Part shown: positions 5,763 to 64,000 of the stretch, one piece after another
How the letters are laid out: each line of letters opens with the position of its first letter
Position numbering within the stretch: position 1 is the first letter of the stretch
DNA from: Candidatus Omnitrophota bacterium
GTDB lineage: Bacteria > Omnitrophota > Gorgyraeia > Zapsychrales > JANLHA01
DNA length: 64,000 nucleotides
Assembly (NCBI GenBank): GCA_022711395.1
Contig: JAKLFA010000003.1
Coordinates: 290,509 to 354,508, forward strand
Reading direction: 5' to 3'
Notes under the pieces: model-generated
What the model was told of the DNA's origin: nothing
Database searches by the model: none
Seen by the model: only the letters and a program-made list of their open reading frames with translations
Position numbers and translations under genes: made by a program

Positions 5763-6605
5763 ATGAATTTAGAAAACAAAAAACAGATCGCTATTATTTT
5801 GTTGGCTGTTGGTCTGGGCCTGGTGGCGTCGGTCTTGACGGCGCAGTTCGTTGATACGAAGATCGCCGAGCAACGGAAAGCGTTGAGCGAAGAGATCACT
5901 CAGACAAAAGTGGGGCCGCTGGTCCGCCAGATCCAGGAGCTTGAAAAGCAAATGGTCGATATGGCGGAAGAGCAAAAAAGGCTCGCTGCTATACGGGTCG
6001 CACAACCGGCTCCGACGGCTGAAGGCGGGGCGCCTGTCGAAGGAGCCTTGATCGCGGAAAAGGCGGTCAGCAAATCCACATTGGCGCTGATGACGCCTTC
6101 CGGAAAGCGCGCGTTCACGGTCATGATCGACTCGTTATCAGCGGTCGGAGGCATGATCAGCCCGGGAGATTTTGTTGATATCATTGTTGATGTCAAAATG
6201 CCAGACCCGACTGAAGGCGGAACAAAGGATGTTTCGTCGATCATTTTTCAGAACATACAGGTTTTAGCGGTAGATACGAACCTCAAAGCGTCTGGTCAAT
6301 ACGAACAGCAATCAAAAGCAAGGTCTTTGAACTTGACCTTTGCGCTCACGCCGGAGGAGGCGGGGCTGATGTCCTTTTTGCAAAAACATGGACAGATGCA
6401 GCTTTTATTGAGAGCTCCGGCGGAAGACGAGATCGAGCTTGTTGAAGTTGCTTCATGGAGGTCCTTGGCGGACTATGTGGCCGAAAAGCAAGGGACAGAG
6501 CTCGTGATCCCAAGGACAAAAGCGATCATTGAGCCGATCTCGACAAAGACGACAGAGGAAGTGAAGCCGTTTATTGAGATTTTTGAAGGCGGCCGGGCAA
6601 AGTAA
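5763..6605 (+). CDS. cpaB: Flp pilus assembly protein CpaB/RcpC-like
   Basis: 280 aa. One N-terminal TM helix and an SAF/CpaB-like core (GKRAFTVMIDSLSAVGGMISPGDFVDIIVDV). The gene sits first in the tad cluster. Confidence 0.65.
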   Translation: MNLENKKQIAIILLAVGLGLVASVLTAQFVDTKIAEQRKALSEEITQTKVGPLVRQIQELEKQMVDMAEEQKRLAAIRVAQPAPTAEGGAPVEGALIAEKAVSKSTLALMTPSGKRAFTVMIDSLSAVGGMISPGDFVDIIVDVKMPDPTEGGTKDVSSIIFQNIQVLAVDTNLKASGQYEQQSKARSLNLTFALTPEEAGLMSFLQKHGQMQLLLRAPAEDEIELVEVASWRSLADYVAEKQGTELVIPRTKAIIEPISTKTTEEVKPFIEIFEGGRAK

Positions 6606-11216: not shown

Positions 11217-11292
11217 CAAATGTTTTATTTTGGACATTTGTGTTTGTAAGTTCTTTTATGGCTATGATATAATTAAACGTTCAAATGTCCAA
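11217..11292. promoter_or_regulatory. promoter/operator region of the HTH-protein gene. Palindrome CAAATGT-N10-ACATTTG plus a direct CAAATGTCCA copy and an extended -10 (TGaTATAAT)
   Basis: caaatgt at 11217-23 and acatttg at 11234-40 are reverse complements. tggacatttg at 11231-40 and caaatgtcca at 11282-91 are reverse complements of each other. tgatataat at 11263-71. Confidence 0.4.
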
Positions 11293-11303
11293 AAAGGAAT
11301 CTT

Positions 11304-13367: not shown

Positions 13368-13401
13368 AACTAAAAGAAGCAAACTTTAAGGAGGATTTAG
13401 T

Positions 13402-13596: not shown

Positions 13597-13610
13597 ATTT
13601 GTTATGGCAC

Positions 13611-14911: not shown

Positions 14912-14915
14912 GCTT

Positions 14916-60700: not shown

Positions 60701-63700
60701 TGGCGGCTGCTGACATGACCGGTGACGGCAATAACAATCCGCCAGCCCAGCCTGATGCAGAAGACACCAAACCGGCCAAGGCCCAAGATCCGGCTCCGGC
60801 TAAAGACACTAAGAAGCCGGTTGAGCCCAGCAAAGCTCCCGTGGCGCCGATTGCCACGATCGATGATGAGACGTTAGGAAAGGCCCTCACCAGCGGTATG
60901 CCGCTGCGCTCGGAAGAAATTTTTGCCAACTTCGAGCATCCGTATAATGTCCGGCTTTTCGCCGCGGCTTTAGCCCAGGCTGAAAGCAAAATGCAACATC
61001 AGATGGCCACCGATGACGGCAGCGGCTTGTTCGGCATGAGCGAAGAAGAGTGGTCTCAGGCCGTTCAATATATGCTCAACCATAAGTTGTTGGAACAGCC
61101 GTTGTCTTACGCGCATGTCTTAGACCCGAACGTGGCCGCTGAGGTCGCGATGGCTAAGTTGAACTATCAGTTCGAGCTTCTGAAGAGCAACCATATGGCT
61201 GACGGCAAGTCTCAGGAAGAGGTCCAGAGACTGGCCCTGGCTGCTTACAGGATGGGCATGGATGAAGTTGTCAAAGCCGGTAAAGTCCCAGCCGCGGCCA
61301 AGGCCTTTGTTGACCAGGTGATGGCTGATTATAAGCGTTCTGATGAGATGACACGCAAAGCCTACAACCTGGAAGTTGTTTACAACCTGCCTAAGACCAT
61401 GTCCGCCGCGCCGGTCTTTACGCCGTATACCAATGGCTTGGGCATTGTTGATGCTCTGGAAGGAAAACATGAAGAACATAAAGTCGGTCCGAAAACAGAA
61501 GTGTTGGAAGCCGTAAAGCAGAGCGCTGAAGATGCGGTGACCAGGTCTGTTCCGCAGAACGCGAAAGCGGAAGAAGACAGAACTGATGCAGCTCTTGCGC
61601 AAGAGAAGAAGTCTTCTGAAGATCCGCTTCTGCCGGCCCTTCCAGAAGGAGACGTTTCGCTCGACCCGACCAGCATGGTCCTGCCGCCCAAAGACGCGTT
61701 AGGGACAGAGTTGCCCACGCTTTCGATCGGGGAACCTGTTGAGGGGACAGGGATGTTCCGTCGCGTGCAGGTCAGCATTAAAGCGAAGGGCCTGGAAGAT
61801 GTTCAGGCTACAAAATATGGATATCAATCAGACGAGCATATTGACAGCAATTCTTTGAACGGGATCGGTCATAGCAATAACCGTCTGGTCAAAGATGTGA
61901 GCGTGGCCCTTATGGCGGAAACAGCCAATGCCTTGGGAGTGTCTTCAGGTGATTTGATTGTTATCCGTTTGAAGAATGGGCAAACGCTCCTGGGAAGATA
62001 TGATGACACCATTCCGTCATTGTATAAAGGGCACAGGGTTGACTTCTATACGCCATCGGGAGAGTTGTCTTTTGATGGGCAGAAGGTCGAGTTGTTTAGC
62101 TATAAACAGATCATGAGCGGCCTTTCTGCTGAAGATCAGACAACGATCAAGGCGGAAGCCGGCCTGCTTGCTTCGAAGACGAATGACACACAAGAAGCGG
62201 CCGTGGCCGGCCAGAGCAAGATATTGAGGAACATGAGCACGCAGGTCGAGCTGACGGCCGATCTGAGGGTCGAAACGATCGACGGCAAAAAGACCCTGGT
62301 CCTTGACCGCAGCTATTATGAATTGGGCGAGAACGAGTTGGCGAAAGTGTATCTGCCGCTGATGGAGAAATTGGGCGTTGACCGCATCGTGATCAAGGGC
62401 AAACAGCCGGTCGCTTATTTCATGGAAGACGGCAAACTGAACACCAAGCGCTTTATGCAGACAGCGGCTCACGGCCAGACCTACCGCGAAAGCGGATATT
62501 ACGGCACGGCGGTCGATACCAAGAGCTGGATCGTGACGGTTCAGGTTCCGTTCGCCTCGCCGGTCCGCACGCCGGTTGCCGGTAACGTGGCCGCGGTCGC
62601 CTTGACAGCGGACGGCTGGAAAGTCACGGTCCAGGCCGAGAACAAGATTGAGACGATCTTCACGCACCTGGGCGAAACAGCGGTCAAGGCGGGCGAAACA
62701 TTGGCAGCGGGCGATCTGATCGGTCTGGCGGGCGAATTCAAGAGCAAGGATGCGAAAGAATATCATTTCCGTATCCAGGTCAAAGAAGACGGCAAGGAGG
62801 TCAACCTTTTGAAGAAAAATGACGGCGCCTCAACGATCGAAGGCGTTCGTCAGGCCTTTGTGAAGAATTTCAACCTCGATCAGGCGGAAGTCGATTTCTA
62901 TACCGGCAAGCTCGAAACGCATGAAGAGCGTAAGACAGAAGCGGACAGCGCCATCGCCGATAACAATGCCCATGTTGAAAAAGGCAAGCTCGAGATCGAG
63001 AAGCAAAAAATCGCTGTTGAGCAGGCCAACGATCCGGAACAGATCCGCCGCAGAGAACAGAGCGCGATCGGCTTCTACTTGTTCGGCAAGCGCGATTGGG
63101 ATGTGGCGAATCCTTATGGCAACGCGAACGCCAGCCGCAGCATGACCGACGCCTTATACGGCACGCCGGCCAATGAGGGCGGTTTCTGGTTCGGGGTCGG
63201 GTTCAATTCGATCTATTCAACGGGCGTCGGCGGTCCGGTCCTCACCCTGGGCGACAACAGCTTCTCACTCGATATTTCCGGCGGCGTGAACAATCAATTC
63301 TTAGGCACATGGGGACAGCTGGCTGGCGATGTGTTTGGGGCTGAAGATGTTCTTTCTAAGGGTCCGGCTGCTACAGCGTTGTTTGGCATTTCATTAACCG
63401 ATAATCTTATTAAGTTGCGCAATACATATGAGGATATTTCACACCGCGCCAATCAGTATGGCTATACTGAATTTTTTGATCAGGGCTGGATCTTCAACAA
63501 ACCTTGGAAGTTGGCGCTGGATACATCCAGGGTTGTTCCCAATCCGCGCCCGATCAACGGTGAATGGGTCAGCGATCCGTATCATCACGCGGACTTTACG
63601 CCCGCGCGCATATTAGAGTATCCCGGCAAGCTGGTCAAAGGCCTGCTGACACTGGATGCCTTTACATCTGATTTCTGGAGCAATAATCCGCTTTATAAGC

Positions 63701-64000
63701 CGTATGAGTCGATCTGGCATGAAGGCTGGATGCAGCGTGAGTGGAGCAAGCGCGCCTTTGAGGCAACGGATGTGAGCGAGTTCTCGATCTTCAGCCGTCT
63801 GTCCGGCGAACCGGAAGCCCTGACTTACGGAAAGGTCAGCCGTTTGGCCGACGGAACATTGTCCTACACGGAAAACATGAAAGAACTTCCGTTCTTAGGA
63901 TATGATGCCGCGACCGGTGATTATGCCAACCGCGAATTCTTTGATGTTTCCAGGAACTGGAGACGCAATGTTGATGCCGGAACGCTGAACATCGTTCCGT
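24706..64000 (+). CDS. giant multidomain protein, 5' complete and 3' truncated by the window edge (>=13,098 codons)
   Basis: Hand translation in frame 1 finds no stop from the upstream TGA at 24559-61 to nt 64000. The frame was verified at 27541, 30001, 36001, 42001, 48001, 54001, 60001 and 63961. All - strand ORFs in this span are short. Candidate starts are 24592 (inside the hairpin), 24682 and 24706. N-terminal TM anchor; domains listed separately. Confidence 0.85.
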   Translation, partial: MQAIRVSDAQSSENEGVSISNNVQNTYGTEPEKAFKSRFKGWLRLVAAIVVFVFLPEQISWAMNYNPAVLWSAQPISMTGMPIASQAPALELQLPQREAAEMLATNVQSLLSRAAMEGNRNLDIQIASPNQKEFRDIDGLRISAKTSLSPEKIQEVAQWLRKPGIHPLNCGVFALHDFLKLSKMPISLEQAALSTLSVDLLTDIVKPGDPTLKTSLYAIDKVISLYQLDHAVIKLEPQDILKLNVPFIANFGQEHFVTVTAIDDKGVHVQDTGVERIMSQEDFLKDLSGYVLILKKNIPISVSYQNVDDVEKAFVWGDRWVDQSDELPGLLGDVGEAWARAGTDVAITVVISIVTWGFGTWLNSLAEAGKIAGMLAKLASELAKMGTIIAGIAAIGIGELVNTINQIAIMNGWWDEDVGFVMGIVLSTALSVGCGMLTSGFAGALDSSVKAGTNGLTGAALGGAAFRGLGTGIGNVPVVFAQRMAQSLIVAFPKAYLARELDKIIDIDDPILKQAAVGFLSSLGTQIGLMGLSFSLDQVGLDSVNSFLDLKAPESLGEFLKEAGLSIGRGLVGNAASIGLRYLFLEIDDETFAADTLVSQAIGQVGQTFGNLLFDIVSSGSLPQILRGDVKKGNFVGDDEVVSAGLFARDSNGDLQEAYKDDKNNYYILGENDQKQLVGIDKIVTRGIGDSGVVERPGDQLESFRGITIDGSNYAIRKRDGQLVDANDQRSRYFILDKQGRPAFLNVDSDGKVTIPTESFAQLKAKGLDPEGNYSLKEDALEGGLPQLHLMQRQALSSRLLAEAVQGLVGVAIAFGMDRLEDAVIDEDDEGQKDKYQTLGLRLVGFLGTLVLAEGASALGRSSGSADGASLEGGSVLSAFGDTFYRGGATFALQLGNNFLRANGTMPSGWEYGKGSFDSIEQMVRFYEQAGERAGWGMDSISKIRGLRKQLDENEDLTDEQKHYYFFMGVSNITKKAKDEWAIDQVNTNLAGGFVNNDMFIEGGIVTNIKSTLGMLLSKFQKPEITKDLLGFTYYRWALEKTGEVEIDGKTAKALEKLEGEAKQAGEEQSKKVDRYAYYLYKTSDVKIDTNIIAEETEVSIAGVGPAGWEIAKIQPGFGRVSFGMVLDDGLMKKLGISEGDIRDGLVKNENGDVDLAKTRDSLSPDTVVGIENLLRLFKEDKGLDQIFNTTVYLGEGKTDPRSVKMEYFRSAGEVSPWTAKIFKYNAPETKQSGGQVVEKSKTVYSLGFQPDYLNPKGAEEANPTWLIGRFNASAAVYGYDRTPGVKDEKEHILEFESAAGFRWASKLPGSIEQGLPLGEMGIAPAVKFGKMNANPRVLAVYGDKTYYARQGSQGGAFQAINDLVGSFISERSFRYDSIVGALDEGYVISTFEKWGEEPGVDKTGLVRLAGGGQQPSTLMIFSVNKDRKIEMDPQTLEIKEKEGVNALNGLGVLDLFTAGISPLEILRGNIATGSFSPEQMAAYEASWKKLDDKARQLVMKLGTDKKVLKELLDIVNSYIAQNGAASATPEGLEAFVNSKEEAKSAVGNHMGEVKDLLGLQQALEEVKKLNPLDAGQTRFARARMFLPAEDGTHPSATTASFFQQGVIDELTVEALHQYYVKESDNPTPPEVKFVKPGTSTVADAETLDSPFGVLPKYASLSESIAGGDIFYKDGQLADYTAIGTSGTIFNLDVSSGRAMAYTVDAARKINVPEAFDKRFKTEYAGDYKMQIFSNRSGVMAGEGSILNYGNNFGWTIGGLNDSEIKNAIAVHDGLNVRYFGTEGKEGSEVTFLQTRTFREYKPTADIERNATLTEIKDGKTEVVGLIHKMDTKVFELSSFEIGGGFRFSLEGKGSDFKDTSIAPLYRFATSDGATITVKLPDEPDARVLKADVSLDFSEKDDGTFLRLSNLRGDYDVKAEAAGNNSVEFRKGQNLVIPIISALGRATIREQEKTVDPALIGEIAKKASTEQQPIDASQVVASHFVSAEFMDKTAAPGASAVLVEAKAGNDGKKQFVLYVLEAENEAEPKDLGPVQVMVSLDEFLQRGKIALGEGEKQQPVVFSTASIKDANGNVITGLTAETARTALESAAKKDPSRAVFVEQVLVLSSEDEESKKMVLAQFPEGTQAGILGKTLFLTPEALQDLANVSFSQPLNPSQIVEVSAADGSSRKVLSDPSLSAEDAIFAAGVIQQQLVSTAKVEDAGFFSKFTHIGIVEDDQIMGGQIAISFEGDVALITKSGLAKIKEAQETGESFLGLLDRGRINSEDQNFQNLGFVGTLAKADPLAEITFENGGKANVIAVDFQKGKIPEVLEARDENGTLIGQALVEKAEPRLSYLYNPLQQGYQEDIIAGFDMSGRLFVPSTMPVSIFKEVQETALPAGAPEAILKEKGLLPMTSRSLSGFSGIIDFNQDGQFRIHAGSRGINEAIQIMLTKGTPESKTDWLVTTLKQTSVDYFNDSGIKSLSESFEQKLSQAFSSNNWVAVDNEAKITTFLEGTAKGRGLLRWHGEDLNLNGSSGTMFAKVSVIDANGQTKELKSKEVSYDHALAMEKGRTNQGDAWVPVSGRVAEAYVKANDVSDLPIDLKNIQIYKRPMSQETLDALVKLRKAVQRYQADKMFGDGVSAPQAEMDKIIEQAERLYGRVTPDTIVKTMLFGGAGINSSMVDVILNEHNASVFRDAAEKDGLAVQIQTDVHLSVLSRGLEGINAYSNVLLSGLDLTSDAGKAEFQKRIKDLRETLANNPRASAMIHLLRREDQAEAGLLNRAIQFVKVGPGGTGGLGSNIEDPAKFAALVLVAIYKLTEGKKDMMNKLDPAQNPAVAVINALYNSPKFDLAAVGSLFDEKLNGSDLGLTEEQKASAIKFLTDVGNSMRAEDDAETAFQFIVRNQDRQKILGSVEVLLGEKVSEELKQKIGIVTNFEGALDNGKVRRVVFGAFSDDTYKALADFGKQLRAVVNLSETFNDAGLTLSESKTLVAQVSALQEGGKAVSPADVVVQLFENSAYKNQMIKIFGALGIKDEEFLNAAVTTYHATQREAKENEFLKMANFMASAGPANIARIFADPNSATQATLKADGEGEALWIAFGKPQQSRLEVFMFALASGNTSAIGQILGEAKVSPEEITNIQIAALQFSKEAAANDFKPEIVQKAFKEKFLPSLSDKALQALTNRDTIDQIARFVNPEYDQKQLEVNFNPFLEGSVFSKGEPAGTDGITVARDDFAGVSSVLNSGAVTIKNGTFFVQEAGLKTTSPIYAPGVIGTLENVINYKEGLPVSASSINVKYSDMMTAKGTDWNVSYGLFALKAGQMEEGLYGPPVPVAATFGLEGIDKYQQDYLFVPQDFSIAEGVAVKLAKESGWSQTRFADGKTLNGQFTKVVLKDGFLSSAALYGEGSFWERVKKEKAGYSPRQATDMDFATFAMVEGETVKNDQGVEEKYTRYATPANVDKTLGYINEKSIPKDMGPDGKRSLEVMKAEGGRLVFALGATGADGKGYFTGILRPDFRRSGSLHLFSKDARIKPVYDKDGKVIKGSFDLSKAVTQFVEGTGDFNTKGLPKFLNALYDQFYAAEGVQRSVAVKDGLYAYGRIAHVVPQGKQAQENYSNISDAPEDVLVGQVFTEDGVKYFGAGDLGRFTDNAFVGLAKTGSFKVDPSQKTIPSWLLFEEKGLQVLGEGGQWLGVSKDTYNINIYQMALGQREDGSYAPLLTREQKVDRKTTWREVRVQGDDKEFEKANQELLDAKRLQLVFLKEKLSGMGDVVLERRQWEFSTMRKMNSTMACHGGGVSCERPAAIKELDRLEAQVRDLENQVGLLSAEFRPIISYGSNWGYLTDDNGNATRMEYFLENGELVGQFGAGESGRAVGMPIISYQKLISDPFNEIAKEGAENTLLGKLASGDIKTGDAVKLPNSIDLHAGDITHVVKLKGRLTRDQVGRDNTALYDLSGDFSVGIVIDGVDTYKGEIRARTTMDIPGTQILLPDPDSVLIDKRASIYNPLSDTKKFDIVKGADKKSFNSFLYAASEKEYQKKLKEMTVGLTAKAFSDAKYASQLLGKPLQEDWVGYPKLTYQEGKDLHAAIKKEAEAKTNQEWVQDANRAGYRLEFGMMDLDDQIAYMREDKNKGGLGMLLFSYDYEGGAAFLNFMNNPDPLVHAETNEERTAIRMAEIVYGANFDLDEKMDDFRVSREYEKALRKEERNDRYEFAAGHYEPWQLLNDDNNYQQLSAIRTPNSVTLKTGQKGGLLGWLGNRFKDDETFTAAELEANREQRIKEIHENSLKYKGQGWGPDDDDTSFSFMSGGRNFEFSLDDEYAKPAFYDLAYHGYDELGVHAQTIGTLGNMVAVTTTIDVASYAWLAVDVIVTVGTLGAATPATAASEAGRIAATQAAKKGLMFAAKKAIYTQLRNAGFRAATSHAMAKVIVQAGTRALIYAGINVGFTALISGGKADAGDYAKAAAWGVLFSRPWAGLGRMSAAGLVKSGMNKITLAALKNVRTGSTAAVQAVGQQIAASGAQIAATGGTTAGVWGQRVVSLGQFVNRHDKAIAYTGLAAILGTGTYFGVKSQKEKLGEFVKTHINISSIGGGLVVGGIAAGALWGRDKVMFAMKEGIKKFKDAFLYNIVKFDDIIQKSILSNSVGKVALGSIIGTGVAAAGGYGINSIFNNDSLDSRGYVASVGTLALAGLALYGAKKIPAPVLQNIKTRAVNVTKPLVAIAKENPKAARYVAVGAGAAGLSAYAEYQSYNQYMAKQKSLKPGESTSYTGYGRPTLAIASAFAAVLGGRKMSRFLAANPEALLISIYQTGVDARYDQNPAESSLLTNVFRSIVLSPGRAIVGSMAGEGGRKFLARRTYLEQEAIFESAQNNLGSLGAAGLSFATAYTRALFTWGTGAYQASAVLSPLDTIKEFADMSRKPKNIPQNTQEEFKLAHLAWMAGSIMGVKPGVKAANVNLKGLLPPGGLRQVLRRTNAAMPSWVFVNSAINIFAPSIFGEGTDEMPDRIKSTAYQSDNVARGAFGAALLYNAVLSPIVKGVSARYTRATQNWSTTTQTMVGGGLTVSGVAMHVLGTQWKARLESEYELLKAEEVALAKIKNRAPDFSKIPKKGVFANILANSGLLVQSVGTSILLKRLHPNTWTKDFKSYTNRQGTFFVGGETSLTARVTDRLFVRPGAFLTGTSLGVLSAASAVYGSKKLVVDHVISAFQARQNNEAEGGFLSHFAANYLEKSTPYLLRGREYSINKAVDLVAMAKALKVLDKDATFDEKQTIKDKTYSKMTNEALKEEAKALGMSETEVDKKLQANDRDAIVWAVIKGKVDRAMESYKVAGKDNEYSFNGELFSKNRDENYERRVGGYGTDLPIYLLEGLMVAATVKGIKEYRSKFAELKRNNDSVKGVSKGLDDYFAESGKLRQATDKFGQEHAFGTAAAWAGAGGVLWGGGELLERAGQGQKNQTMQEWGRAIQVLGKTGVAIGGAVALGGFGDRILQSSKLSFAGKMNSGAIMVGKMTAETASNLAFVMAPLSGVLEGVSWAANKAVPLAGSDMEKNFLKYTVAGFWDDTQVLAKDGKTWIDRGAVKYQGATSIFGVMGRAYSSGLFGYDVATGELKVASLSDIPTTPQKLLPLPESMGGSPTEEYKGLQGQMIGFSAGLTALRWMTPVLNNIKYADFGRRFQAMNHSFDKTFDIDLFKSNSKVGKMFERFPLHPSRMISGSIEEIGEQFAQIGLQMTPVGYVGPILRQFGVSPTAARSFSEQFNEIVQEIVLSGSKIGVKNSRYANQQVLQFLSNNAGRFSGSQGLENLKAGLRDAASADQLGDIRADEVDYVIENYEEIGFVDSYGVTMPARMVLAATNGIGADARGYGAEQARQALANFKALITQDIELQIDEQNRSVEQVANVLEAQAQQKGQSFNRQEFLASARSSGRLITSEKRAKILESYTKSLEALEKKDDLTVLDVAQKMDELKGSSANLQQFFTLAADRGGFDASSLQGVTYGEVAAFLHEGGFRGTQFAGVTQSDMRQQLFGQAGDVTGATIFRHGDLGAGGQQQLYAMLRGGTGMVAAHDVEMGDEIIIESMAHQPVSADAFGGTQPQAPPSATPAASASSASPTLNTTTPSSSPTPLDPSAPTPGTNASVTPSTPTTPSVSPAPATAQAPAPTSASAAAEAVAKLVERKPGDIAREKTLSSLSMGRAVQRVMKKAKDGKVELIGFLNATAQAVEIDVGSGEKVQLKSGEFLRAKDAAVFGYDASRLAGQTDKARVKSFGFDEAKPVALFEQEVETPGVTQINPMTGKQEVVSRDKLRTVRREVMTDAATGKRFIERKIADVEMTVGVEQAPLANVPQIEVRSTQEVTVEGDKVVVSPRKMTNTIHIVQPAASEEGVAPAAIDPQVQALDGARVEGNVVYSASNNTPVALIHDGYRSMQFVDATDAGYRIKGGDLFAEAVVQRLGLSRHLPSQDAEDAPDIIIPKAEFENALGRNRELSQADTRILGNVVYRNEAGEIHTDFVDPTGRKFVVLRGSDGASYIIERDESVGAYRVAANNTEARILLRRSGIKTRSEAGQDILISDAQMDQALLGNGKFHMAAEINSRLRNKQSQDPAADAQKLAQLTTELISYYHPNATVTPSVEKGTLVHTYSVPDGSGGHKTFRFLPTLEAEKGKSSEHYRESERVDTGFQALVAELTPFKPTEGVGVVGHEGRHVFDFRMRVQGGRRLGGSAMITGAVALPIRKGFVSSGKRNDLSDVQHTNIYLSSVQGAQKATELGEVRAYRSQLLAQVGQFLESADIEDHELAQEQAKDMLYFMKLARNISYKAEFGYRQALGIIRGGQLGQDFAITADPLNAQGSIVVVTYKDASGQVRKIQQPIDPRARDRISAKYAAQGITKTDDEVTKEAVIEIFESTVQEEQAQSARIEQAIVLLDQVGRDASQFNPLAFRVAFKGYSATSRGGNTREHLARVFDQAVDRERNFAGIGNEGIASDIQARRVLAEITSDSVRVDGGSSEFTRLTGRAADSNMILEYNAQTGRGVIYEKEGQKVIADAPVLGKDASGKTIVVERKDQVKKTGGKIFAFVSVGSSGSPKQIQDVRAKIDFDSTAKIEVVKAQQPATPAAPAGTSPAILVSAPAASASTPVPAVLTAQAALSQNTESYSADMARATPVEFAKYTLGRQASKGSTTAQKILAGEIPLQLSGTSAIVPAGSDAAETQPTPRAAINAAFRDSKPVNAELLAAYNAKSERPISVPQNYVQQGEFLVPSSGAVSSSTSAAVLSTPATEAALPALATPPDVGTAAPVGTLPVAPVLTPVAVTGMPLAADLDAMKTADKLARAHIDNIIADKPGSVEPAGTSAVDRQPQPRVSQGSRYSSGQGEVTGARTVDQAKVLDAAMSAVKPDSNQVIATRRADGTIVSIINPNTKTVEIAGVALQPGQEAVMAQEPQTQEYKAIKVERRQSEGQTQTVVSEPVTIGAIQLERGDIVEYAKTGEVRILDKAKPQMVKAEVAGQVRSDIEPDAVKQVEVQKTFGDLKVVKADVAVATGESKTLYVQPTETVQKVFPDRKADESGNVRLSEQEIKTVFSLENTGVTNIEKTRRDLNQAVVAKAEGRGEVKTLTAAPKVYQQAVEAARQDLQGQLMIAQAKAQDSKGEDERARFETQARQIQSELDLLRDENVVVLDTPQTQVQTYRTEAQAEQLKPEQAVAVERVLNERVEGGFVDNTGRVVVFADTAERNFDYAVKTEQANLIQDSVKARVAETVKHEVAAAANQYSTDAANIEAARTRIADLGLPTQASLTGREGDKTEVMDASSVTAMLSGQKHEVRPFDRRREVAPRNWEVVFPETVFKAQNISFQEEKLISASRARESFVHGFLLNQPQLEVESAISRVLKKPVNLDDVSDRITLSYFDEGTNKDVFKVTMTAQNGEQFTFKLAHKQPKKGGDISPRETVNLSAVSDVSGAVPGFGGRYEYNGRAFYIEEFIEGKTVRQINQQGGLTHAIREKSVKTILEVSKTLHDLGEAEDMPKDIHTGNVMIRDRDGSAVMVDIGNNYVPVGQGVQNLVRFYGYFGENKDKGSNEFIYQALLDAYGREDGLRYLQSNVDHIKAAMAYDQKTGREAGVTSPKKKQIREQRDEPALRTEDSLQVVQEMEDFIRRVSSSPSSDLVRGTNAAVIAPAVTYKVSPPQMDRPVLEKTFVSPQFVHDLKVLGVRDENISKVEIGQGVGGREKTFYPVTAGDQKVAVVVIGGGQENVDRSYEFQKLVSQKLLGVTQTPVSLQKYPGGVGVKVEELIPGPSLEIISRRLYERAAKPEVDEATRGKMIATAQALTRKSVMRYVRLWDQFGMTVDTDPSNVKFKASSEKRFGMPVIVDLDAPQEFDPSMPEEFTRSSKTASELIESIGDPFGNGTVSYDAVMDEYVAKAVRQGKTVEAGKQEGVRVLREALAEFKAKAAPTVGMNFTQIYTDQLTSYIDGDGLKNYEYVDHRIERMNLPVMSETEAVRTAARDQLEMIKTRQTLASAGTNSAVLSEAPRSALAAAVDLKTVLPVNAETRRPELKVVSSDKNYVIVASEPKESVVPGRMQSHFNVYATDAQGKVEMSNGEPRVIGDFKLSSSMQNGRPVVEINEVAIPRAQDRGQGIYGAFVDQLKTTVPAGAEIKITDVRHAQTLADFAGAVSTELKARGDVAGLKAVKFMALRSELQQINDDFEQGKISLLEYTMAVEAPRKALVPLLHQYDQISELDQSLPSLTVMARKTDFGKRHQGLFDVETVSFTMPRNDGDILLHISGAAKGTASLAQTGTNAAVLSSGLGRTLAKAVLPVSLLFAGASFDTAEAVTDRTAAAYAGNNARFGVGSSEIVKARAEMDRGLDEILNIVQKRNGGNLIPGGVNAPVLSEILSKAVKPGEAPRFETVSSAIRNELTSRYQKFDSGKMSPAEVAELEQLEQDVAVFTTRLVTESSQYDATGRGEEYMALRNIVYGWPTVDGNIARRYVCEGCAAMNTLIGENEFGLREFRKLNVQMDAKGIVFGIDGEAGHSNNYLRTASGKTVLPVDQGVFGKDADHLKVDVWNDQGEHRVVQISDLSKPELKGFRGESANEIKARDEAELRLKTLTDQNNLSARLSNGRSMEQLSQVRREVQMIESSPELMKAIARHPHLQKNFDGLKKGVTGNIKITTYNEAVEQFNGLSRQLNGVGTLFENKDYKAAAGQYEKTATDIKKAIETLKANGFEQLQQASSDGQIVRGGSLISGLEKMLKVAEDNAAAARHNAGIGTGLTSRTPSSVVATGSRTEALKVNGLISRFNEASQAKNISELKQLLSEVETLSGTVNDKAMSEALGDIKTKAGQNITVLQFNDLAARFNVYANQRGQGAVKELEKIQADAEEALKTAPQTSPVRTKLDDMIRQTRQIIERRRSGASVDPQQASPLKEAEGQLASVNTVTPLIEATAELSPLPYETVTTYSVDHGVVVARGTPWMDTLAGQASDADRAGRNYENGSAQALGRPAPQTNAAVLAQETIKINYRYPKSISAGLGRASNFEGKAEISRKAHQANSGKGDFRQVHVIASDDADPAAQAEKMVYERQARKDQTPVYIFDAQDSQSPLKAVEITDKGQISYRKVQPSEIETGTVVVANPRLNTAAAFSPASETARNLVKKGNVIVDPDVFSVEHLDGQAAPETSVIGLSAAQTTKVHAASIPAVQAKAMKSVRIVLGVQDGVVLSREAFVDPRIRQYSPKEQQNLNDAIFVFAQQGTFDYVQIDDTDPSSMRTEIIRTADGMNILVIGAGYSRTEMRTLVENIGDEAAQDSGWAALAVKTASNWLTKIRPSVVLSDKTAGDIMVGRKNLTPGQAPIISAQASAALVGPKSGKIPSWSEAVSSLAAEQKAGVQGINVASGLKASTSSTQVNNAVLSSGNSGNEDGMDADQWVALMQAQSGISDTEIGDVSVVEGFIPSMHDGEGSLEENSREGEYYRMTRTGAGFKVSEIRPANDFKAVDEASDIVLFVRKDRPEVIAKYHLRTASGKEKPEAEISRAVKTVFESEQWKNRQPQSVRQAPASENRGANAAVVKEPSDIFLGGVPTRGETVLGLIGTVSSETQPVAGAEDSAPVQKHVINFFSSNEGKDSSAGAARNYPLETPITDTLQSEIRDLEHEFDQAQVSAQPAEVQETAYRKLVAAKALLLREYETRLLNQVAKARNDDALQNATNPLEHDIRINGKTVLTLKNSEGILRGGSWYDQLAKQAQDPEVLDVLDVAKNLDRQADHLSHFDGQGMSVSAIRGEISSLAGQLNWLKVRLSASDRSDRAVARAQRSVRQQTPRTTTQAVSALQRPSKVGSVIVGIATSTKNPMDTEAWRPFLEGKIKAGDQAAIAEYVALFLSGDANWVEFRRLLEAGAIETGEIWAPVLELVYAKEAELAAQGAVNETEDANAAVLGGSFWVRGAQSLLVAGMLAQGISGFNAGAAEAIADSVKQEMAADARLRDELHRAMAEFDRIEKKYTLKREFKPGLHMIGDFDDIRPTVILIHGGFSRPDAFERFAPYFREKFNIVIFAHDSAERLTRTGELFRADYERLLKGTSSKKIVVTHSFGSTAFMRAMLDASPEFKAELKTAKVFMLSPAFFGSARVGMGGSWFVQGQLWLGSLGGAFDFLEATRRQGQYHDPDGKTTAELYKRYQEFKALFNDEVEVIALTNDSHAPKRQESVLGQRYQQIVVEGGALLPAETDVGHSEILRRRDVVETIINKVSGGASTETNPAVLSRDFEWPALPQNESQLRSQLKESFARSWNPVRGTPRDALRIYRVNGRFFVKAPLAAHLILGKELALNAFGRHFIPTTALVASVDSLKYGVVDQYAANDPGAPVVYVQPVVQPFVDVVQDEFGFQHAVAGQGILNAEPAQSIARIDFYFEILEDMLKVGLSNADATIAQVGVAENNRTYFFDIERFREVKPQLGDAQDVQVNTLLAIDARNRELLAEAGVGKEILSHYDLRSKAFFKQDTLDKLWQAEMNLRQPVSSLFDYAKDVASRFTPSLTKEEFKQNVALPELGEAVNASAMRGKAAPVAGDSALTNSAVLPGADDSALPELPQPDINPAVLPDTSTPLPIQLNPGMLPVYILGKADTNVPDPIGQGSERDSKQSPVVPVSGSQLPLPLIPADGGTPGPGTGTGSKANSTAFVVLARSILPASKQEVRAAPNNLDQTQGDFEITDIRMASRKNWTGTGLSPTAWVSADHSTVVQAEGAVEWIGLGVGTVVEGVVFDNVANLLSNTGLSRVALNEGEADAWSVRLGANFTQEVAGSVVEVEAAVEGVTDGSNSAVLGGVTTDKGETEARSVRYGAENVQRTGIVISSRSSRRGNRSLKGHDTEARGILVAAIQPWALLEAGEGILDVVSGLGTKILASVVAVGSKPVVTGVKQGSQSAGSRDRTEHSSPLAMPEVLGVRIDSSYSVSRRSRNQNAGRSNSKAFGRAVNRLARTIRGIIGTVVRSRRNRSVEHNSRGSDSSAEGESADSDADADAEDSRSVRTISGSYDVEGSRSVISSVSADQSERLVQNAVQGVRELQNVSAGSNAAVVAEGQVNSADADDQGVRSVGTKDVEGNRSVISSVSADQSERLVQNAVQGVRELQNMTAGSDRAVSAITDDHGVEGNRLLNAGAVYSVGTSQLERADSDSPELREEERAAQAQDVSTTSIPAATTTGTGFDGNAKRSQFWASVRMAGFKTEARIILTRMTGALSTFILAILKGAQSIRAPNFVNLTASINFMKSLIKGGLSIVRTAYDQASSFIKGGSSWYSLTHNQMSNSSISLKSLSHAARSAQGETEQPVRPSFTLSSMNTNASTLATGSEEPGKSSNQEQADSLETSSTMPTQTSASRATARTSTSRLSIRDHVYSTGLWLLLGIVLSAYMSGMHILVIVAIASVWLGISARIYQGTSLSQNKGKGLLTRIVENTVLKNTILWFMIFFYGFAGNAMGASMKAEDRDAGYKAPNVVNVENWTGHQSGMSLSGTTLWMGDRANDQGILRLAHAMAQQNRGPAKVVAAADMTGDGNNNPPAQPDAEDTKPAKAQDPAPAKDTKKPVEPSKAPVAPIATIDDETLGKALTSGMPLRSEEIFANFEHPYNVRLFAAALAQAESKMQHQMATDDGSGLFGMSEEEWSQAVQYMLNHKLLEQPLSYAHVLDPNVAAEVAMAKLNYQFELLKSNHMADGKSQEEVQRLALAAYRMGMDEVVKAGKVPAAAKAFVDQVMADYKRSDEMTRKAYNLEVVYNLPKTMSAAPVFTPYTNGLGIVDALEGKHEEHKVGPKTEVLEAVKQSAEDAVTRSVPQNAKAEEDRTDAALAQEKKSSEDPLLPALPEGDVSLDPTSMVLPPKDALGTELPTLSIGEPVEGTGMFRRVQVSIKAKGLEDVQATKYGYQSDEHIDSNSLNGIGHSNNRLVKDVSVALMAETANALGVSSGDLIVIRLKNGQTLLGRYDDTIPSLYKGHRVDFYTPSGELSFDGQKVELFSYKQIMSGLSAEDQTTIKAEAGLLASKTNDTQEAAVAGQSKILRNMSTQVELTADLRVETIDGKKTLVLDRSYYELGENELAKVYLPLMEKLGVDRIVIKGKQPVAYFMEDGKLNTKRFMQTAAHGQTYRESGYYGTAVDTKSWIVTVQVPFASPVRTPVAGNVAAVALTADGWKVTVQAENKIETIFTHLGETAVKAGETLAAGDLIGLAGEFKSKDAKEYHFRIQVKEDGKEVNLLKKNDGASTIEGVRQAFVKNFNLDQAEVDFYTGKLETHEERKTEADSAIADNNAHVEKGKLEIEKQKIAVEQANDPEQIRRREQSAIGFYLFGKRDWDVANPYGNANASRSMTDALYGTPANEGGFWFGVGFNSIYSTGVGGPVLTLGDNSFSLDISGGVNNQFLGTWGQLAGDVFGAEDVLSKGPAATALFGISLTDNLIKLRNTYEDISHRANQYGYTEFFDQGWIFNKPWKLALDTSRVVPNPRPINGEWVSDPYHHADFTPARILEYPGKLVKGLLTLDAFTSDFWSNNPLYKPYESIWHEGWMQREWSKRAFEATDVSEFSIFSRLSGEPEALTYGKVSRLADGTLSYTENMKELPFLGYDAATGDYANREFFDVSRNWRRNVDAGTLNIVP
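25180..25600 (+). other. domain: C39-like papain-fold cysteine peptidase in giant protein
   Basis: HPLNCGVFALHDFL (Cys) ... 85 aa ... EHFVTVTAIDDKGVHVQDTG (His, then Asp). The spacing and motif context match the bacteriocin-processing peptidase fold. Confidence 0.55.
48270..48960 (+). other. domain: protein-kinase-like fold 1 in giant protein
   Basis: FKVTMTAQNGEQFTFKL (Lys), catalytic-loop-like DIHTGNVMI, and DFG-like VMVDIGNN. Confidence 0.4.
49290..49790 (+). other. domain: protein-kinase-like fold 2 in giant protein
   Basis: Glycine-rich VVVIGGGQENV, then DTDPSNVKF (HGD-like loop), then VIVDLD. Confidence 0.35.
56100..56840 (+). other. domain: alpha/beta-hydrolase (lipase/esterase-like) in giant protein
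   Basis: Oxyanion motif VILIHGG, nucleophile elbow VTHSFGS, and downstream Asp (TNDSHAP) and His (TDVGHSEIL). Confidence 0.6.
59180..59480 (+). repeat. tandem direct duplication (~201-nt period, 2 copies, core ~85 nt essentially identical) inside the giant ORF
   Basis: cgttctgtcatcagttcagtaagtgcggatcaatccgaaagattggtccaaaatgcagttcagggagtgcgagaactgcagaat occurs at about 59194 and about 59395. It encodes RSVISSVSADQSERLVQNAVQGVRELQN twice. Confidence 0.85.
60265..60510 (+). other. two internal transmembrane helices about 11.85 k residues into the giant protein
   Basis: GLWLLLGIVLSAYMSGMHILVIVAIASVWLGI and ILWFMIFFYGFAGNAMGA. Confidence 0.5.
60950..61340 (+). other. domain: lytic transglycosylase (SLT, lysozyme-like) in giant protein
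   Basis: AQAESKMQHQMATDDGSGLFGMSEEEW (ES...GLMQ-like), LDPNVAAEVAMAKLNY, and ALAAYRMGMDEV (AYNAG-like). Confidence 0.65.
62470..62790 (+). other. domain: degenerate M23/LytM-like beta-barrel in giant protein
   Basis: YGTAVDTKSWIVTVQVPFASPVRTPVAGNVAAV...FTHLGETAVKAGETLAAGDLIGLAGEF...EYHFRIQV. The topology is M23-like, but the HxxxD and HxH metal ligands are replaced (Y...D, YHF). Confidence 0.35.

What the first reader, a model, noticed from the sequence alone, without database searches (positions are those of the whole stretch)
5763..64000. Tad/Flp pilus locus placed directly upstream of the giant gene on the same strand: a candidate two-part adhesion and lysis system
cpaB, the secretin, tadZ-tadA, 10 pilin/pseudopilin genes, tadB, tadC and the giant gene are all co-oriented. 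The only non-coding gap is the 600-bp control region at 24100-24705. The giant protein combines a membrane anchor with peptidase, esterase, SLT and M23-like modules, which are tools for attacking another cell's envelope. I recall that giant ORFs adjacent to Tad- or T2SS-like loci have been reported in Omnitrophota metagenome bins and linked to predatory or epibiotic lifestyles. This window matches that pattern, but I cannot verify the taxon. The specific domain order, the motif array and the fused components seen here may not have been described.
Basis: partly seen in the sequence, partly recalled or inferred. Interest (0 to 1): 0.85.

Follow-up and report, generated by a model that had tools for sequence, protein, structure and literature searches.

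The report
Omnitrophota Tad pilus–giant gene locus
This is a new example of an already published arrangement in Omnitrophota bacteria, a Tad pilus gene cluster followed by a giant membrane-protein gene; the new part is a conserved 13-base DNA motif shared by the giant gene's control region and by a DNA-binding protein gene inside the pilus cluster.

Summary
The window holds a complete Tad (type IVc) pilus cluster at 5763-24099, a 600-bp AT-rich gap, and an ORF of at least 13,098 aa that runs off the window end. The taxon is Omnitrophota.

The Tad-to-giant-gene linkage is real. Among 80 related loci, TadC lies upstream on the same strand in 60 of about 70 testable cases. This pattern is already published (West-Roberts 2023; Seymour 2023; Nielsen & Lui 2026), including the C39 head, the upstream PPIase and the small class-III-signal genes.

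Several details fail:
- No SLT domain was found.
- The M23 domain lacks zinc-ligand motifs, so it looks like a degenerate LytM domain.
- The esterase call is below the Pfam threshold.
- A conserved antisense zinc-ribbon gene and other non-coding gaps exist.

The "lysis toolkit" is therefore weak for this 13-kaa fragment.

What appears undescribed is the motif array. AATGTCCAATCTG is 47-fold enriched upstream of giant genes across the phylum. It also flanks the promoter of, and lies inside, p560, a conserved gene in the Tad cluster. p560 has a Tc3/Pax-like HTH domain, a weak Tn5-like body and no conserved DDE triad. I propose that p560 is the motif-binding regulator that couples the two modules. 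This is untested.

The parts
4735..5715 (+). PpiC/SurA-type peptidyl-prolyl isomerase. It is the conserved first gene of the block described by West-Roberts.
   Evidence: NCBIfam PPIase hits. Rotamase domains at the same position in L084, L085, L088 and L089. Paper section 11.
5763..6605 (+). CpaB/RcpC
   Evidence: Pfam RcpC 7e-24
6637..8352 (+). Tad secretin (RcpA/CpaC) with a C-terminal TonB_C domain fused
   Evidence: Pfam Secretin 1.8e-42, T2SS-T3SS_pil_N 8e-10, TonB_C 8e-15. Same fusion in all relatives examined.
8394..10556 (+). Fused TadZ (ParA/MinD-like) and TadA (T2SSE ATPase)
   Evidence: Pfam AAA_31/ParA at aa 4-241 and T2SSE at aa 365-645. The fusion is conserved.
10563..10910 (+). 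DUF192 protein, conserved in the cluster
   Evidence: Pfam DUF192 4e-20
10911..11177 (-). Double zinc-ribbon protein, transcribed divergently from p560
   Evidence: Pfam DZR_2/DZR. A 77-79 aa minus-strand gene at the same place in L083-L086 and L088.
11226..11296 (.). p560 promoter region bracketed by two motif copies. The (-) copy is at 11226-11238 and the (+) copy at 11284-11296. The promoter-like site TTGTAA-18-TATAAT lies at 11244-11273.
   Evidence: The same bracket is conserved in the close relatives L083-L087; in L088 and L089 only (+) copies lie near the start.
11304..12986 (+). p560: conserved protein with a Tc3/Pax-type HTH domain and a weakly Tn5-like, non-DDE body. It is the candidate motif-binding regulator.
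12030..12111 (+). Two perfect AATGTCCAATCTG copies inside the p560 gene (12030-12042 and 12099-12111), 69 nt apart
   Evidence: Conserved at homologous positions in L083-L086 and L088; 31 nt apart in L087.
12999..13028 (+). Strong promoter-like site (TTGACA-18-TATACT with TG) ahead of the pilin genes
13227..15589 (+). Seven small Flp-type prepilin genes (13227-13367, 13402-13596, 13671-14048, 14088-14411, 14522-14911, 14916-15263, 15275-15589)
   Evidence: Class-III leader motif followed by a hydrophobic helix
15595..17440 (+). Two TadE/F-like pseudopilin genes (525 aa at 15595-17172; about 85 aa at 17183-17440)
   Evidence: Leader motifs AQSAAELAVF and AQVTLEFTM. Homologues at the same place in relatives.
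17465..21889 (+). 1474-aa Cys-rich (3.4%) protein with a TadG-like N-terminal hydrophobic segment
   Evidence: Homologues in most relatives. L089 has a Pfam Tad-domain protein at a nearby position in its Tad cluster, though not in the same slot.
21931..22308 (+). Flp-type prepilin, 125 aa, Cys-rich (6.4%)
22342..24099 (+). TadB (22342-23199) and TadC (23218-24099)
   Evidence: Pfam T2SSF in both
24180..24216 (+). Terminator-like hairpin plus T-run about 80 nt after the tadC stop
24198..24781 (.). Motif array of the giant gene's control region. Core TGTCCA (+) lies at 24281, 24300, 24330 and 24771. Core TGGACA (-) lies at 24203, 24491, 24571, 24659 and 24695.
   Evidence: Phylum-wide enrichment.
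24499..24507 (+). Extended -10 element TGtTATACT, the likely giant-gene promoter. TTGACA at 24482-24487 is only 14 nt away.
   Evidence: Read from the sequence. Conserved in L003. The same TGnTATACT type occurs at p560 promoters in L087 and L088.
24595..24622 (+). Leader hairpin GACCGCC-TTTC-GGCGGTT plus T-run, between the promoter and the start codon. It is a candidate attenuator.
   Evidence: Conserved in L003. Similar hairpins occur in 17 of 77 loci against about 0.2 in shuffles.
24682..63999 (+). Giant ORF, truncated by the window end. It encodes at least 13,098 aa from ATG 24706 (NCBI uses ATG 24682). It has no internal repeats and 0.05% Cys.
25153..25605 (+). C39 (double-glycine peptidase-type) domain just after the N-terminal TM helix (TM at 24832-24888)
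56164..56691 (+). Possible alpha/beta-hydrolase domain (aa 10487-10662)
   Evidence: Abhydrolase_6 at 24.7 bits, below the 26.3 cut-off. THSFGS motif.
62539..62805 (+). Degenerate LytM/M23 domain (aa 12612-12700)
   Evidence: Pfam 3e-10. PDB hits to ShyA, SpoIIQ and DipM, with catalytic motifs missing.

Best explanation
The window is a piece of an Omnitrophota chromosome. It carries the phylum's conserved block: PPIase, then a Tad (type IVc) pilus machine, then a giant gene whose product begins with a C39 domain and is membrane-anchored.

SHOWN
- The Tad cluster is nearly complete: RcpC, a secretin fused to TonB_C, fused TadZ-TadA, ten prepilin/pseudopilin genes, a TadG-like giant pseudopilin, TadB and TadC.
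- The giant gene follows it in most relatives.
- The two are separate transcription units. A terminator-like hairpin follows tadC, and the giant gene has its own extended -10 promoter and a leader with a second hairpin.
- An asymmetric 13-nt motif, AATGTCCAATCTG, is arrayed in both orientations around the giant gene's promoter and start codon in most Omnitrophota relatives. The same motif brackets the promoter of p560 and sits twice inside the p560 gene. p560 is a conserved Tad-cluster gene, and its most conserved part is a Tc3/Pax-type HTH domain.

INFERRED
- p560 is a transposase-derived, non-catalytic DNA-binding protein. It binds the motif, autoregulates, and gates giant-gene transcription. 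It may do so by pairing inverted sites and looping the promoter or 5' end.
- This would couple production of the very costly giant protein to the pilus module.
- The pilus mediates attachment to a host or prey cell, and the Cys-free giant protein is threaded out from its N-terminal membrane anchor to act on the partner's surface. This last step rests on published proposals. It does not rest on lytic domains in this fragment, where that evidence is weak.
For: Identity and taxon.

Published pattern.

Synteny:
- TadC lies upstream on the same strand in 60 loci, at gaps of 349-8440 bp. The ORFs run off the locus end, more than 3,600 aa from the match wherever the full 10-kb flank is held.
- Whole-block synteny from gyrA to tadC holds in L084, L085 and L088.

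Separate transcription units.

Motif:
- TGTCCA is the top 6-mer in an unbiased scan of 62 intergenic regions: 122 observed against 9.4 expected, present in 52 of 62.
- The positional profile is sharp and the extended logo is the same in both orientations.
- The 13-mer (up to 2 mismatches) occurs at 1.66/kb in the 1.4 kb upstream of the giant gene against 0.036/kb in the other 1.15 Mb, a 47-fold difference. Perfect copies number 30 against 3. At least one copy occurs in 63 of 76 loci.
- The motif is also present upstream of giant genes that lack an adjacent Tad cluster.

p560:
- It always sits between DUF192 and the first flp gene.
- Motif copies lie just downstream of the -10 box in all 8 loci examined. 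The two internal perfect copies are kept even at 43% protein identity.
- AF2 model: pLDDT 79, pTM 0.72.
- The family has 906 representatives at 50% identity, all with a single architecture.
- Residues conserved at 85% or more lie almost entirely in the HTH domain, and there is no DDE triad.

Cys depletion: 0.05% in the giant protein against 3.4-6.4% in the pseudopilins. The median is 0.13% in relatives.
Against: - No binding, expression or localisation data exist for this locus. p560 binding the motif is purely correlative. The small divergent zinc-ribbon protein or an unlinked factor could be the binder.
- Exact motif pairs also occur elsewhere in metagenomes: inside yidC, near parAB, and after a T4P-like operon. 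The motif is therefore not exclusive to these two genes and could be a dispersed MITE-like or terminator element.
- About 10 of 70 giant genes are not next to a Tad cluster.
- Envelope-attack domains are poorly supported in the 13,098 aa available.
- No prepilin peptidase (TadV) gene is present in the window.
Confidence: 0.65

Rival explanations
1. The Tad-like machine is not mainly an adhesion pilus. It is the dedicated export or assembly apparatus (a T2SS-like piston plus secretin) for the giant protein or for its C39-processed fragments. The adjacency would then reflect a secretion system and its substrate.
For: West-Roberts describe the upstream genes as a T2SS/T4SS-like secretion system. 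Linkage is conserved. The giant protein is almost Cys-free, as expected for a protein exported unfolded. A PPIase chaperone gene heads the block. The pseudopilin set is unusually large, including 525-aa and 1474-aa members.
Against: The gene set is diagnostic of Tad rather than T2SS: RcpC, TadZ, Flp-type leaders and two T2SSF paralogues. Secretin pores pass folded proteins of ordinary size, and no precedent exists for a substrate above 13,000 aa with its own N-terminal TM anchor. Ten of about 70 giant genes lack the adjacent cluster. The two are separate transcription units.
Confidence: 0.2
2. The motif copies are not operators. They are relics or active copies of a miniature inverted-repeat element derived from the ends of the ancestral p560 transposon. 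They persist because inverted pairs serve as terminators or RNA hairpins, and p560 may have a role unrelated to the giant gene.
For: After tadC in one clade the pair forms a 13-bp stem followed by a T-run. Exact pairs also occur in frame inside yidC, near parAB, and at the end of a T4P-like operon. p560 has a transposase-like fold, and its own gene is flanked by and contains the motif. This resembles REP/RAYT-type systems (my own knowledge).
Against: Copies sit at fixed positions relative to the giant gene's start codon and to the p560 -10 box across lineages with only 30-45% protein identity. Density elsewhere in 1.15 Mb is near chance. Single copies and same-orientation arrays are common, and these cannot form hairpins. 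p560 lacks a conserved DDE triad, so it cannot mobilise anything.
Confidence: 0.15
3. The inverted motif copies are recombination sites of an invertible promoter switch. This would give phase variation of the giant gene, catalysed by p560 or by an unlinked recombinase.
For: (+) copies lie upstream and (-) copies downstream of the promoter. A transposase-like protein is encoded in the cluster. Phase variation would suit a gene this costly. Piv-type transposase-derived invertases at pilin loci are a precedent (my own knowledge).
Against: An independent assembly of the same species and the 82%-identical relative both show the same orientation. There are many more than two copies, and both orientations occur on both sides. 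The p560 promoter bracket is only about 55 bp. p560 has no conserved catalytic triad.
Confidence: 0.07
4. Adjacency without cooperation. Both modules simply occupy a conserved neighbourhood (gyrA, tRNA-Glu, mdh) inherited vertically, and they work independently.
For: The whole block from gyrA onwards is syntenic. The two are separate transcription units, and insertions between them are tolerated. Some giant genes lie elsewhere.
Against: The tadC-to-giant junction survives across relatives with only 27-45% N-terminal identity, and even where other genes are inserted. A shared cis-motif links a Tad-cluster gene to the giant gene. Published proteomics, as summarised by Seymour et al., reports Tad expression in co-culture and 3-fold more giant-ORF peptides in attached V. 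archaeovorus cells.
Confidence: 0.1

Closest known systems
Omnitrophota giant-gene loci (West-Roberts et al. 2023, bioRxiv 10.1101/2023.11.21.568195; Nielsen & Lui 2026, bioRxiv 10.64898/2026.06.07.730766)
   Same: A giant ORF with an N-terminal C39 domain next to a TM/signal segment and a long N-terminal region without annotated domains. It is preceded by a secretion/pilus system of more than 10 genes with gspD/E/F- and rcpC-like genes, a Rotamase PPIase, and many small class-III-signal genes.
   Different: Only the first 13,098 aa are visible. In that part there are no SecA_DEAD, glycosyltransferase, dockerin or TSP3 domains, so the subtype (Archaeovorin or Dockerin-type) cannot be assigned. 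Those papers do not mention the promoter, the 13-nt motif array, p560, or Cys depletion.
Velamenicoccus archaeovorus LiM Tad complex plus 39,678-aa ORF (Kizina et al. 2022, as summarised in Seymour et al. 2023, PMC10066038)
   Same: A complete Tad cluster that is expressed in co-culture, and a giant multi-TM ORF more abundant in attached cells. This is the model for the epibiotic predator lifestyle.
   Different: It is a different lineage. I could not retrieve its sequence to test for the motif or for p560, and no expression data exist for the present organism.
Canonical Tad/Flp pili (Aggregatibacter tad, Caulobacter cpa; my own knowledge)
   Same: RcpC/CpaB, RcpA/CpaC secretin, TadZ/CpaE, TadA/CpaF, TadB, TadC, Flp prepilins and TadE/F/G-type pseudopilins.
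   Different: TadZ and TadA are fused. The secretin carries a TonB_C domain. There are eight Flp-type genes, and the pseudopilins are very large and Cys-rich (525 and 1474 aa). DUF192, a zinc-ribbon gene and p560 are embedded in the cluster. No TadV, TadD or RcpB gene is present in the window.
PCAT / AMS C39 double-glycine peptidase domains (PCAT1, LahT, ComA)
   Same: The fold matches (Foldseek prob 1.00, target TM about 0.7) and the Cys/His pair is conserved.
   Different: The domain is not attached to an ABC transporter. It follows a single N-terminal TM helix at the head of a giant protein. Its substrate is unknown, and self-processing has been proposed.
Domesticated transposase-derived DNA-binding proteins (Tc1/mariner-type HTH as in Pax and SETMAR; Tn5 inhibitor protein; my own knowledge)
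   Same: p560 has a Tc3/Pax-like N-terminal HTH domain and a weakly Tn5-like body. It is single-copy and syntenic, lacks a catalytic triad, and its cognate-looking 13-bp sites are arranged like inverted element ends.
   Different: No sequence similarity to any known family. DNA binding is untested. The fold match outside the HTH domain is weak.

Membership tests
Tad/Flp (type IVc) pilus system | TadA-type secretion ATPase | tested here: met
   T2SSE 7e-60 in aa 365-645 of the 8394-10556 product
Tad/Flp (type IVc) pilus system | Two T2SSF-family platform proteins, TadB and TadC | tested here: met
   T2SSF in the 22342-23199 and 23218-24099 products
Tad/Flp (type IVc) pilus system | RcpA/CpaC secretin and RcpC/CpaB | tested here: met
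   Secretin 1.8e-42 and RcpC 7e-24
Tad/Flp (type IVc) pilus system | TadZ/CpaE ParA-like localisation ATPase | tested here: met
   AAA_31/ParA/CbiA in aa 4-241, fused to TadA
Tad/Flp (type IVc) pilus system | Flp prepilins with a G/A-x4-E-Y processing motif, and TadE/F pseudopilins | tested here: met
   Ten ORFs carry the motif. Relatives' copies hit Class_IIIsignal and Flp_Fap weakly.
Tad/Flp (type IVc) pilus system | Dedicated prepilin peptidase TadV/CpaA (A24) | tested here: not met
   No A24 peptidase was seen among the window ORFs that were scanned. It may be encoded elsewhere in the genome.
Omnitrophota giant proteins (West-Roberts) | N-terminal C39 peptidase domain next to a signal/TM segment | tested here: met
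Omnitrophota giant proteins (West-Roberts) | Length above 30,000 aa with numerous TM helices | not testable with these tools
   The ORF is cut by the window end at 13,098 aa. Only 4 TM-like segments were found by a crude hydropathy scan.
Omnitrophota giant proteins (West-Roberts) | SecA_DEAD / preprotein-binding domains | tested here: not met
   No Pfam hit in the visible 13,098 aa. They could lie further downstream.
Omnitrophota giant proteins (West-Roberts) | Preceded by a multi-gene secretion/pilus system, a PPIase and class-III-signal genes | tested here: met
   Also true in 60 relatives.
Omnitrophota giant proteins (West-Roberts) | Followed by PilZ genes and solute-binding/glycosidase genes | not testable with these tools
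   The 3' end of the gene lies outside the window.
Peptidase C39 | Papain-like fold with a catalytic Cys and His | tested here: met
   Foldseek prob 1.00 to PCAT1/LahT/ComA. C170 (HPLNCG) and H255 (EHFV) are invariant in 8 sequences.
Active M23/LytM metallopeptidase | Zn ligands HxxxD and HxH | tested here: not met
   No HxxxD or HxH in aa 12500-12800. Pro sits at the aligned Asp position, and E-Y-H replaces H-x-H. The Pfam match starts at profile position 8.
SLT lytic transglycosylase | Recognisable SLT domain or the catalytic E-S...GLMQ signature | tested here: not met
Alpha/beta hydrolase (esterase) | Significant profile match and a Ser-Asp-His triad | tested here: inconclusive
   24.7 bits against a 26.3 cut-off. 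T-H-S-F-G nucleophile elbow and a C-terminal GH are present.
DDE transposase (Tn5/IS4-like), for p560 | RNase-H-like catalytic core with a conserved D, D, E triad | tested here: not met
   Only D233 is at least 85% conserved among acidic residues in 142 sequences. The fold match to Tn5 is weak.
Sequence-specific HTH DNA-binding protein, for p560 | Three-helix HTH domain; demonstrated binding to a site | tested here: inconclusive
   The fold criterion is met. Binding is not testable here; there is only co-occurrence with the motif.

The most novel reading that the evidence does not exclude
p560 is a phylum-wide, transposase-derived but non-catalytic HTH protein encoded inside the Tad cluster. 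It recognises the 13-bp element AATGTCCAATCTG. By binding, and possibly synapsing, inverted copies around its own promoter and around the promoter and start of the giant gene, it acts as the master switch for giant-protein production. This would give the Tad module and the giant gene a shared regulatory circuit. Motif pairs in yidC, near parAB, and after a T4P-like operon hint at a wider regulon that prepares the envelope for the giant protein.
Probability: 0.35. Interest if true: 0.65.

Novelty: new member of a known kind. Interest (0 to 1): 0.42.

Why it matters
The Tad-plus-giant-gene arrangement itself adds only one more example to a published pattern. Its value is as an independent confirmation across 80 genomes.

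The motif and p560 would matter more. Nothing is known about how cells control genes of 40-400 kb, whose products cost a large share of the cell's resources. A conserved operator-like element plus a candidate regulator makes that question testable by DAP-seq, EMSA, reporter fusions and regulon scans of the 176 complete genomes. It would also provide the first mechanistic link between the pilus module and the giant protein.

The finding that the M23 domain is degenerate and SLT is absent is a caution against reading 'cell-wall attack' from domain names alone.

Tried and rejected
- SLT: searched for by Pfam on whole 5000-aa pieces and on 1000-aa chunks at E 0.5, by PDB phmmer, and by regex. Nothing found.
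- Known RNA elements in the leader: Rfam gave no hit, either at gathering threshold on the whole window or at E<=1 on 24050-24850. The only hit in the window was tRNA-Glu at 2614-2687. The leader folds only mildly better than shuffles (z = -2.7).
- Internal repeats ('motif array' at protein level): self-BLAST of the giant protein found none at E 1e-4.
- Chimeric assembly as the cause of the GC jump at about 41.9 kb: an independent NCBI contig is 100% identical across it, so this was rejected.
- oriC or DnaA boxes as an explanation for the AT-rich motif array: GC skew does not change sign, and the motif is absent from a dnaA-yidC intergenic region.
- DNA-uptake-sequence-like genome-wide repeat: background density in 1.15 Mb is near chance.
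- Inversion: the window, L002 and L003 are colinear.
- p560 annotation: no hits in NCBIfam, in PDB by sequence, or in PDB by profile. The afdb50 fold library was unavailable.
- Literature search for the motif string returned only unrelated primer sequences.
- Giant N-terminal C39 as a substitute prepilin peptidase: considered and set aside. The Flp leaders are not double-glycine type, and the predicted topology places C39 on the opposite side of the membrane (inference only).
Full report
WHAT IS THERE

All substantial genes in the window are on the + strand. In order they are:
- gyrA (72-2516)
- tRNA-Glu (2614-2687)
- a CN-hydrolase
- mdh
- a PpiC/SurA-type PPIase (4735-5715)
- a Tad cluster

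Pfam confirms the following Tad genes:
- RcpC/CpaB (5763-6605)
- a secretin with a C-terminal TonB_C domain (6637-8352)
- a fused TadZ-TadA protein (8394-10556)
- DUF192 (10563-10910)
- TadB (22342-23199)
- TadC (23218-24099)

Between DUF192 and TadB lie:
- a small double-zinc-ribbon gene on the minus strand (10911-11177)
- a 560-aa gene with a weak HTH signal (11304-12986, called p560 here)
- ten ORFs with a class-III (Flp/TadE-type) leader motif
- a 1474-aa Cys-rich protein with a TadG-like N-terminal hydrophobic segment

After a 582-606-bp AT-rich gap, a single open frame runs from 24586 to the end of the window. In-frame ATGs lie at 24682 (NCBI's choice) and 24706, giving at least 13,098 aa.

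THE GIANT PROTEIN FRAGMENT

- A basic tail and one TM helix (aa 43-61) are followed by a C39 domain. The domain is supported by Pfam and by an AF2 model matching the PCAT1, LahT and ComA peptidase domains at Foldseek probability 1.00. Cys170 and His255 are invariant among relatives.
- About 10,000 aa then follow with no Pfam or PDB match and no internal repeats.
- Near the end of the window there is a sub-threshold alpha/beta-hydrolase match at aa 10487-10662. It scores 24.7 bits against a cut-off of 26.3, and a T-H-S-F-G nucleophile elbow is present.
- An M23 domain lies at aa 12612-12700. It lacks the HxxxD motif and has E-Y-H in place of HxH. It also matches degenerate LytM proteins such as SpoIIQ and DipM. 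It is more likely a binding or activator module than a peptidase.
- No SLT domain or signature was found.
- The fragment has 6 Cys in 13,098 aa (0.05%). The neighbouring pseudopilins have 3.4-6.4%. The first 2,000-3,600 aa of 56 relatives have a median of 0.13% Cys.
- GC content jumps from about 0.46 to about 0.56 at about 41.9 kb inside the gene. An independent contig is identical across this point, so it is not a misassembly.

TAXON AND LITERATURE

- The N-terminal 800 aa is 100% identical to a partial protein of an NCBI 'Candidatus Omnitrophota' MAG, GCA_035453615.1. All other hits are also Omnitrophota.
- West-Roberts et al. (2023) state that Omnitrophota giant genes have C39 domains near the N-terminus. 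[quoted passage not shown]
- Nielsen & Lui (2026) found secretion or pilus flanks at 13 of 14 giant genes. [quoted passage not shown]
- Seymour et al. (2023) summarise that V. archaeovorus expresses its Tad complex in co-culture, and that giant-ORF peptides are 3-fold more abundant in attached cells.

NEIGHBOURHOOD TEST

I scanned one genome per GTDB species with an alignment of the conserved N-terminus. This gave 80 loci, nearly all labelled Omnitrophota; some are evidently mislabelled 'uncultured Planctomycetales'.
- The ORF that starts at the match runs off the locus (>3,600 aa) everywhere except three loci containing N-gaps.
- TadB and TadC lie upstream on the same strand in 60 loci, with gaps of 349-8440 bp.
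- Ten loci with at least 2.5 kb of upstream sequence have no Tad genes there. They have housekeeping genes instead, or in L075 a second C39-headed protein.
- Where the gap exceeds about 2.4 kb, it holds inserted DUF4143-type ATPase genes, transposase-like genes or other genes.
- Fetching contigs through p560 homologues showed that the whole order is conserved down to 30% p560 identity: gyrA, CN-hydrolase, mdh, PPIase, RcpC, secretin-TonB_C, TadZ-TadA, DUF192, (minus-strand zinc ribbon), p560, pilins, 500-aa, 1400-aa, Flp, TadB, TadC.

Linkage is strong but not obligatory, and the 'fused components' are traits of the phylum.

TRANSCRIPTION UNITS

- A terminator-like hairpin follows tadC at 24180-24206.
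- An extended -10 element, TGtTATACT, lies at 24499-24507. It is conserved in the closest relative, and the same type occurs at p560 promoters in L087 and L088.
- A second hairpin plus T-run (24595-24622) sits in the leader. Comparable hairpins occur in 17 of 77 loci against about 0.2 in shuffles.
- Strong promoter-like sites also precede p560 (11244-11273) and the pilin genes (12999-13028).
- The cluster and the giant gene are neighbours, not one operon.

THE MOTIF ARRAY

- An unbiased 6-mer count over 62 tadC-to-giant intergenic regions puts TGTCCA first: 122 observed against 9.4 expected, present in 52 of 62 regions.
- The extended consensus is the asymmetric 13-mer AATGTCCAATCTG, and it is the same in both orientations.
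- Positions are structured. (+) copies cluster 400-900 nt before the conserved FKSRFK codon. A (-) copy lies at the start codon, where it encodes the 'RLD' of many predicted N-termini. Another (+) copy lies about 33 nt before FKSRFK, where it encodes 'NVQS'.
- With up to 2 mismatches, the density is 1.66/kb in the 1.4 kb upstream against 0.036/kb in the remaining 1.15 Mb, a 47-fold difference. Perfect copies number 30 against 3. At least one copy occurs in 63 of 76 loci.
- Giant genes without an adjacent Tad cluster also carry the motif.

Within the window, the only perfect copies are two inside p560 (12030 and 12099). Weaker copies bracket the p560 promoter.
- In seven other p560 loci, a (+) copy sits just downstream of the -10 box.
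- The two internal copies are retained even at 43% protein identity.
- I found no mention of the motif, of a promoter or of p560 in the two giant-gene papers, and no relevant literature hit for the motif string.

p560

- It has no family assignment.
- It belongs to a large family with a single architecture: 906 representatives at 50% identity, 612 of them at E<=1e-30.
- The AF2 model has pLDDT 79 and pTM 0.72.
- It shows an N-terminal three-helix domain that matches the Tc3-transposase, GcrA and Pax paired DNA-binding domains.
- Its body's best hit, though a weak one, is Tn5 transposase.
- In 142 family members, the residues conserved at 85% or more lie almost entirely in the HTH domain. No DDE triad is conserved.
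- At the p560 promoter, and at the giant gene's 5' end in one clade, the copies are oriented CAGATTGGACATT...AATGTCCAATCTG, like inward-facing element ends.

I infer that p560 is a domesticated transposase acting as a site-specific DNA-binding regulator. This would mean autoregulation plus control of the giant gene, possibly by pairing inverted sites. This is correlation only.

CAVEATS ON THE MOTIF

- A metagenome scan for the exact convergent pair found only five contigs.
  - One is directly after tadC.
  - One lies between a T4P-like pseudopilin/prepilin-peptidase operon and a ligase gene.
  - Two are in frame inside yidC, next to dnaA and parAB.
  - One is next to parB.
  The element therefore has other locations. 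This suggests either a wider regulon or MITE-like dispersal.
- In one clade, the pair after tadC forms a 13-bp hairpin plus T-run and may simply terminate transcription.
- No inversion is seen between independent assemblies.
- Rfam finds nothing in the leader.

VERDICT

- The interpretation matches published hypotheses. It is supported here by synteny, but not by lytic domain content.
- As a Tad-plus-giant-gene locus, this is a new member of a known kind.
- The conserved 13-nt element shared by p560 and the giant-gene control region is the one feature that appears new and worth following up.

Noticed in passing
window 24706-63999; L003-L082 downstream of the match: The giant protein is almost free of cysteine. 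It has 6 Cys in 13,098 aa, one of them the C39 catalytic Cys, and there are CxxC-like pairs at aa 3773/3780 and 8962/8965. Relatives show the same depletion (median 0.13%). The adjacent pseudopilins are Cys-rich (3.4-6.4%). The giant-gene papers I read do not mention this.
   Followed up: partly
window 6637-8352: The Tad secretin carries a C-terminal TonB_C domain. The same fusion is present in every relative examined. Nielsen & Lui noted 'TonB-domain flanks' in two cases, apparently without linking them to the secretin.
   Followed up: partly
window 8394-10556: TadZ (ParA-like) and TadA (ATPase) are fused into one 720-aa protein. The fusion is conserved across the phylum.
   Followed up: partly
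window 10911-11177 (minus strand): A conserved double-zinc-ribbon protein gene is transcribed divergently from p560. The 126-bp region between the two genes carries motif-like copies. This protein is an alternative candidate for the motif binder.
   Followed up: partly
window ~41,800-42,000: GC content rises abruptly from about 0.46 to about 0.56 inside the giant ORF, with a Lys-to-Arg shift in the protein. An independent contig is identical across this point. A 40%-identical homologue (P0025) ends at nearly the same place. This may be a recombination or module boundary.
   Followed up: partly
window 24595-24622; 17 of 77 related loci: A terminator-like hairpin lies within the giant gene's leader, downstream of its promoter. 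It may be an attenuator or an antitermination control point for a very long transcript. The GGCGGT in its 3' arm loosely resembles an RfaH ops element, but that comparison rests on my memory only.
   Followed up: partly
L092 3779-3824, L093 893-938, L091 1639-1678, L094 2503-2536: Exact convergent pairs of the 13-nt motif also occur outside this locus. Two are in frame inside yidC (encoding NVQS...QIGH), one is just upstream of parB, and one lies between a T4P-like pseudopilin/prepilin-peptidase operon and a DNA ligase gene. The taxon of these contigs was not verified.
   Followed up: partly
intergenic regions of 24 related loci (e.g. L015 around -150, L010 around -160 relative to the FKSRFK codon): A second enriched word, GCCACGG/CCACGG, occurs 33 times against 3.2 expected. 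In some loci it appears to flank the start-proximal motif copy as a short inverted repeat (CTTGCCAC...GTGGCAAG).
   Followed up: no
L027, L032, L033, L035, L039, L044, L051, L055, L062, L063, L069 (between tadC and the giant gene): The tadC-to-giant gap is an insertion hotspot. It holds AAA/DUF4143-type ATPase genes, transposase-like genes and, in L063 and L069, extra ORFs of 1352 and 2378 aa. In L069 the motif array stays next to tadC rather than next to the giant gene.
   Followed up: partly
L075 331-5427: A second C39-headed protein of 1699 aa lies in tandem upstream of the giant gene, in a locus without an adjacent Tad cluster.
   Followed up: no
record titles; P0025: Many loci with this Omnitrophota-specific gene head are deposited as 'uncultured Planctomycetales', one as Elusimicrobia and one as Deltaproteobacteria. 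A 40%-identical fragment of the giant protein is labelled 'Candidatus Bathyarchaeia archaeon'. These are probably mis-binned or mislabelled records.
   Followed up: no
window 72-5715 and L084, L085, L088: The housekeeping genes upstream (gyrA, tRNA-Glu, CN-hydrolase, malate dehydrogenase) are syntenic with the Tad cluster across distant relatives. The whole block therefore has a fixed chromosomal position.
   Followed up: partly
window 5763-24099: No prepilin peptidase (A24/TadV) gene is present in or near the Tad cluster, even though it has ten genes with class-III leaders.
   Followed up: no
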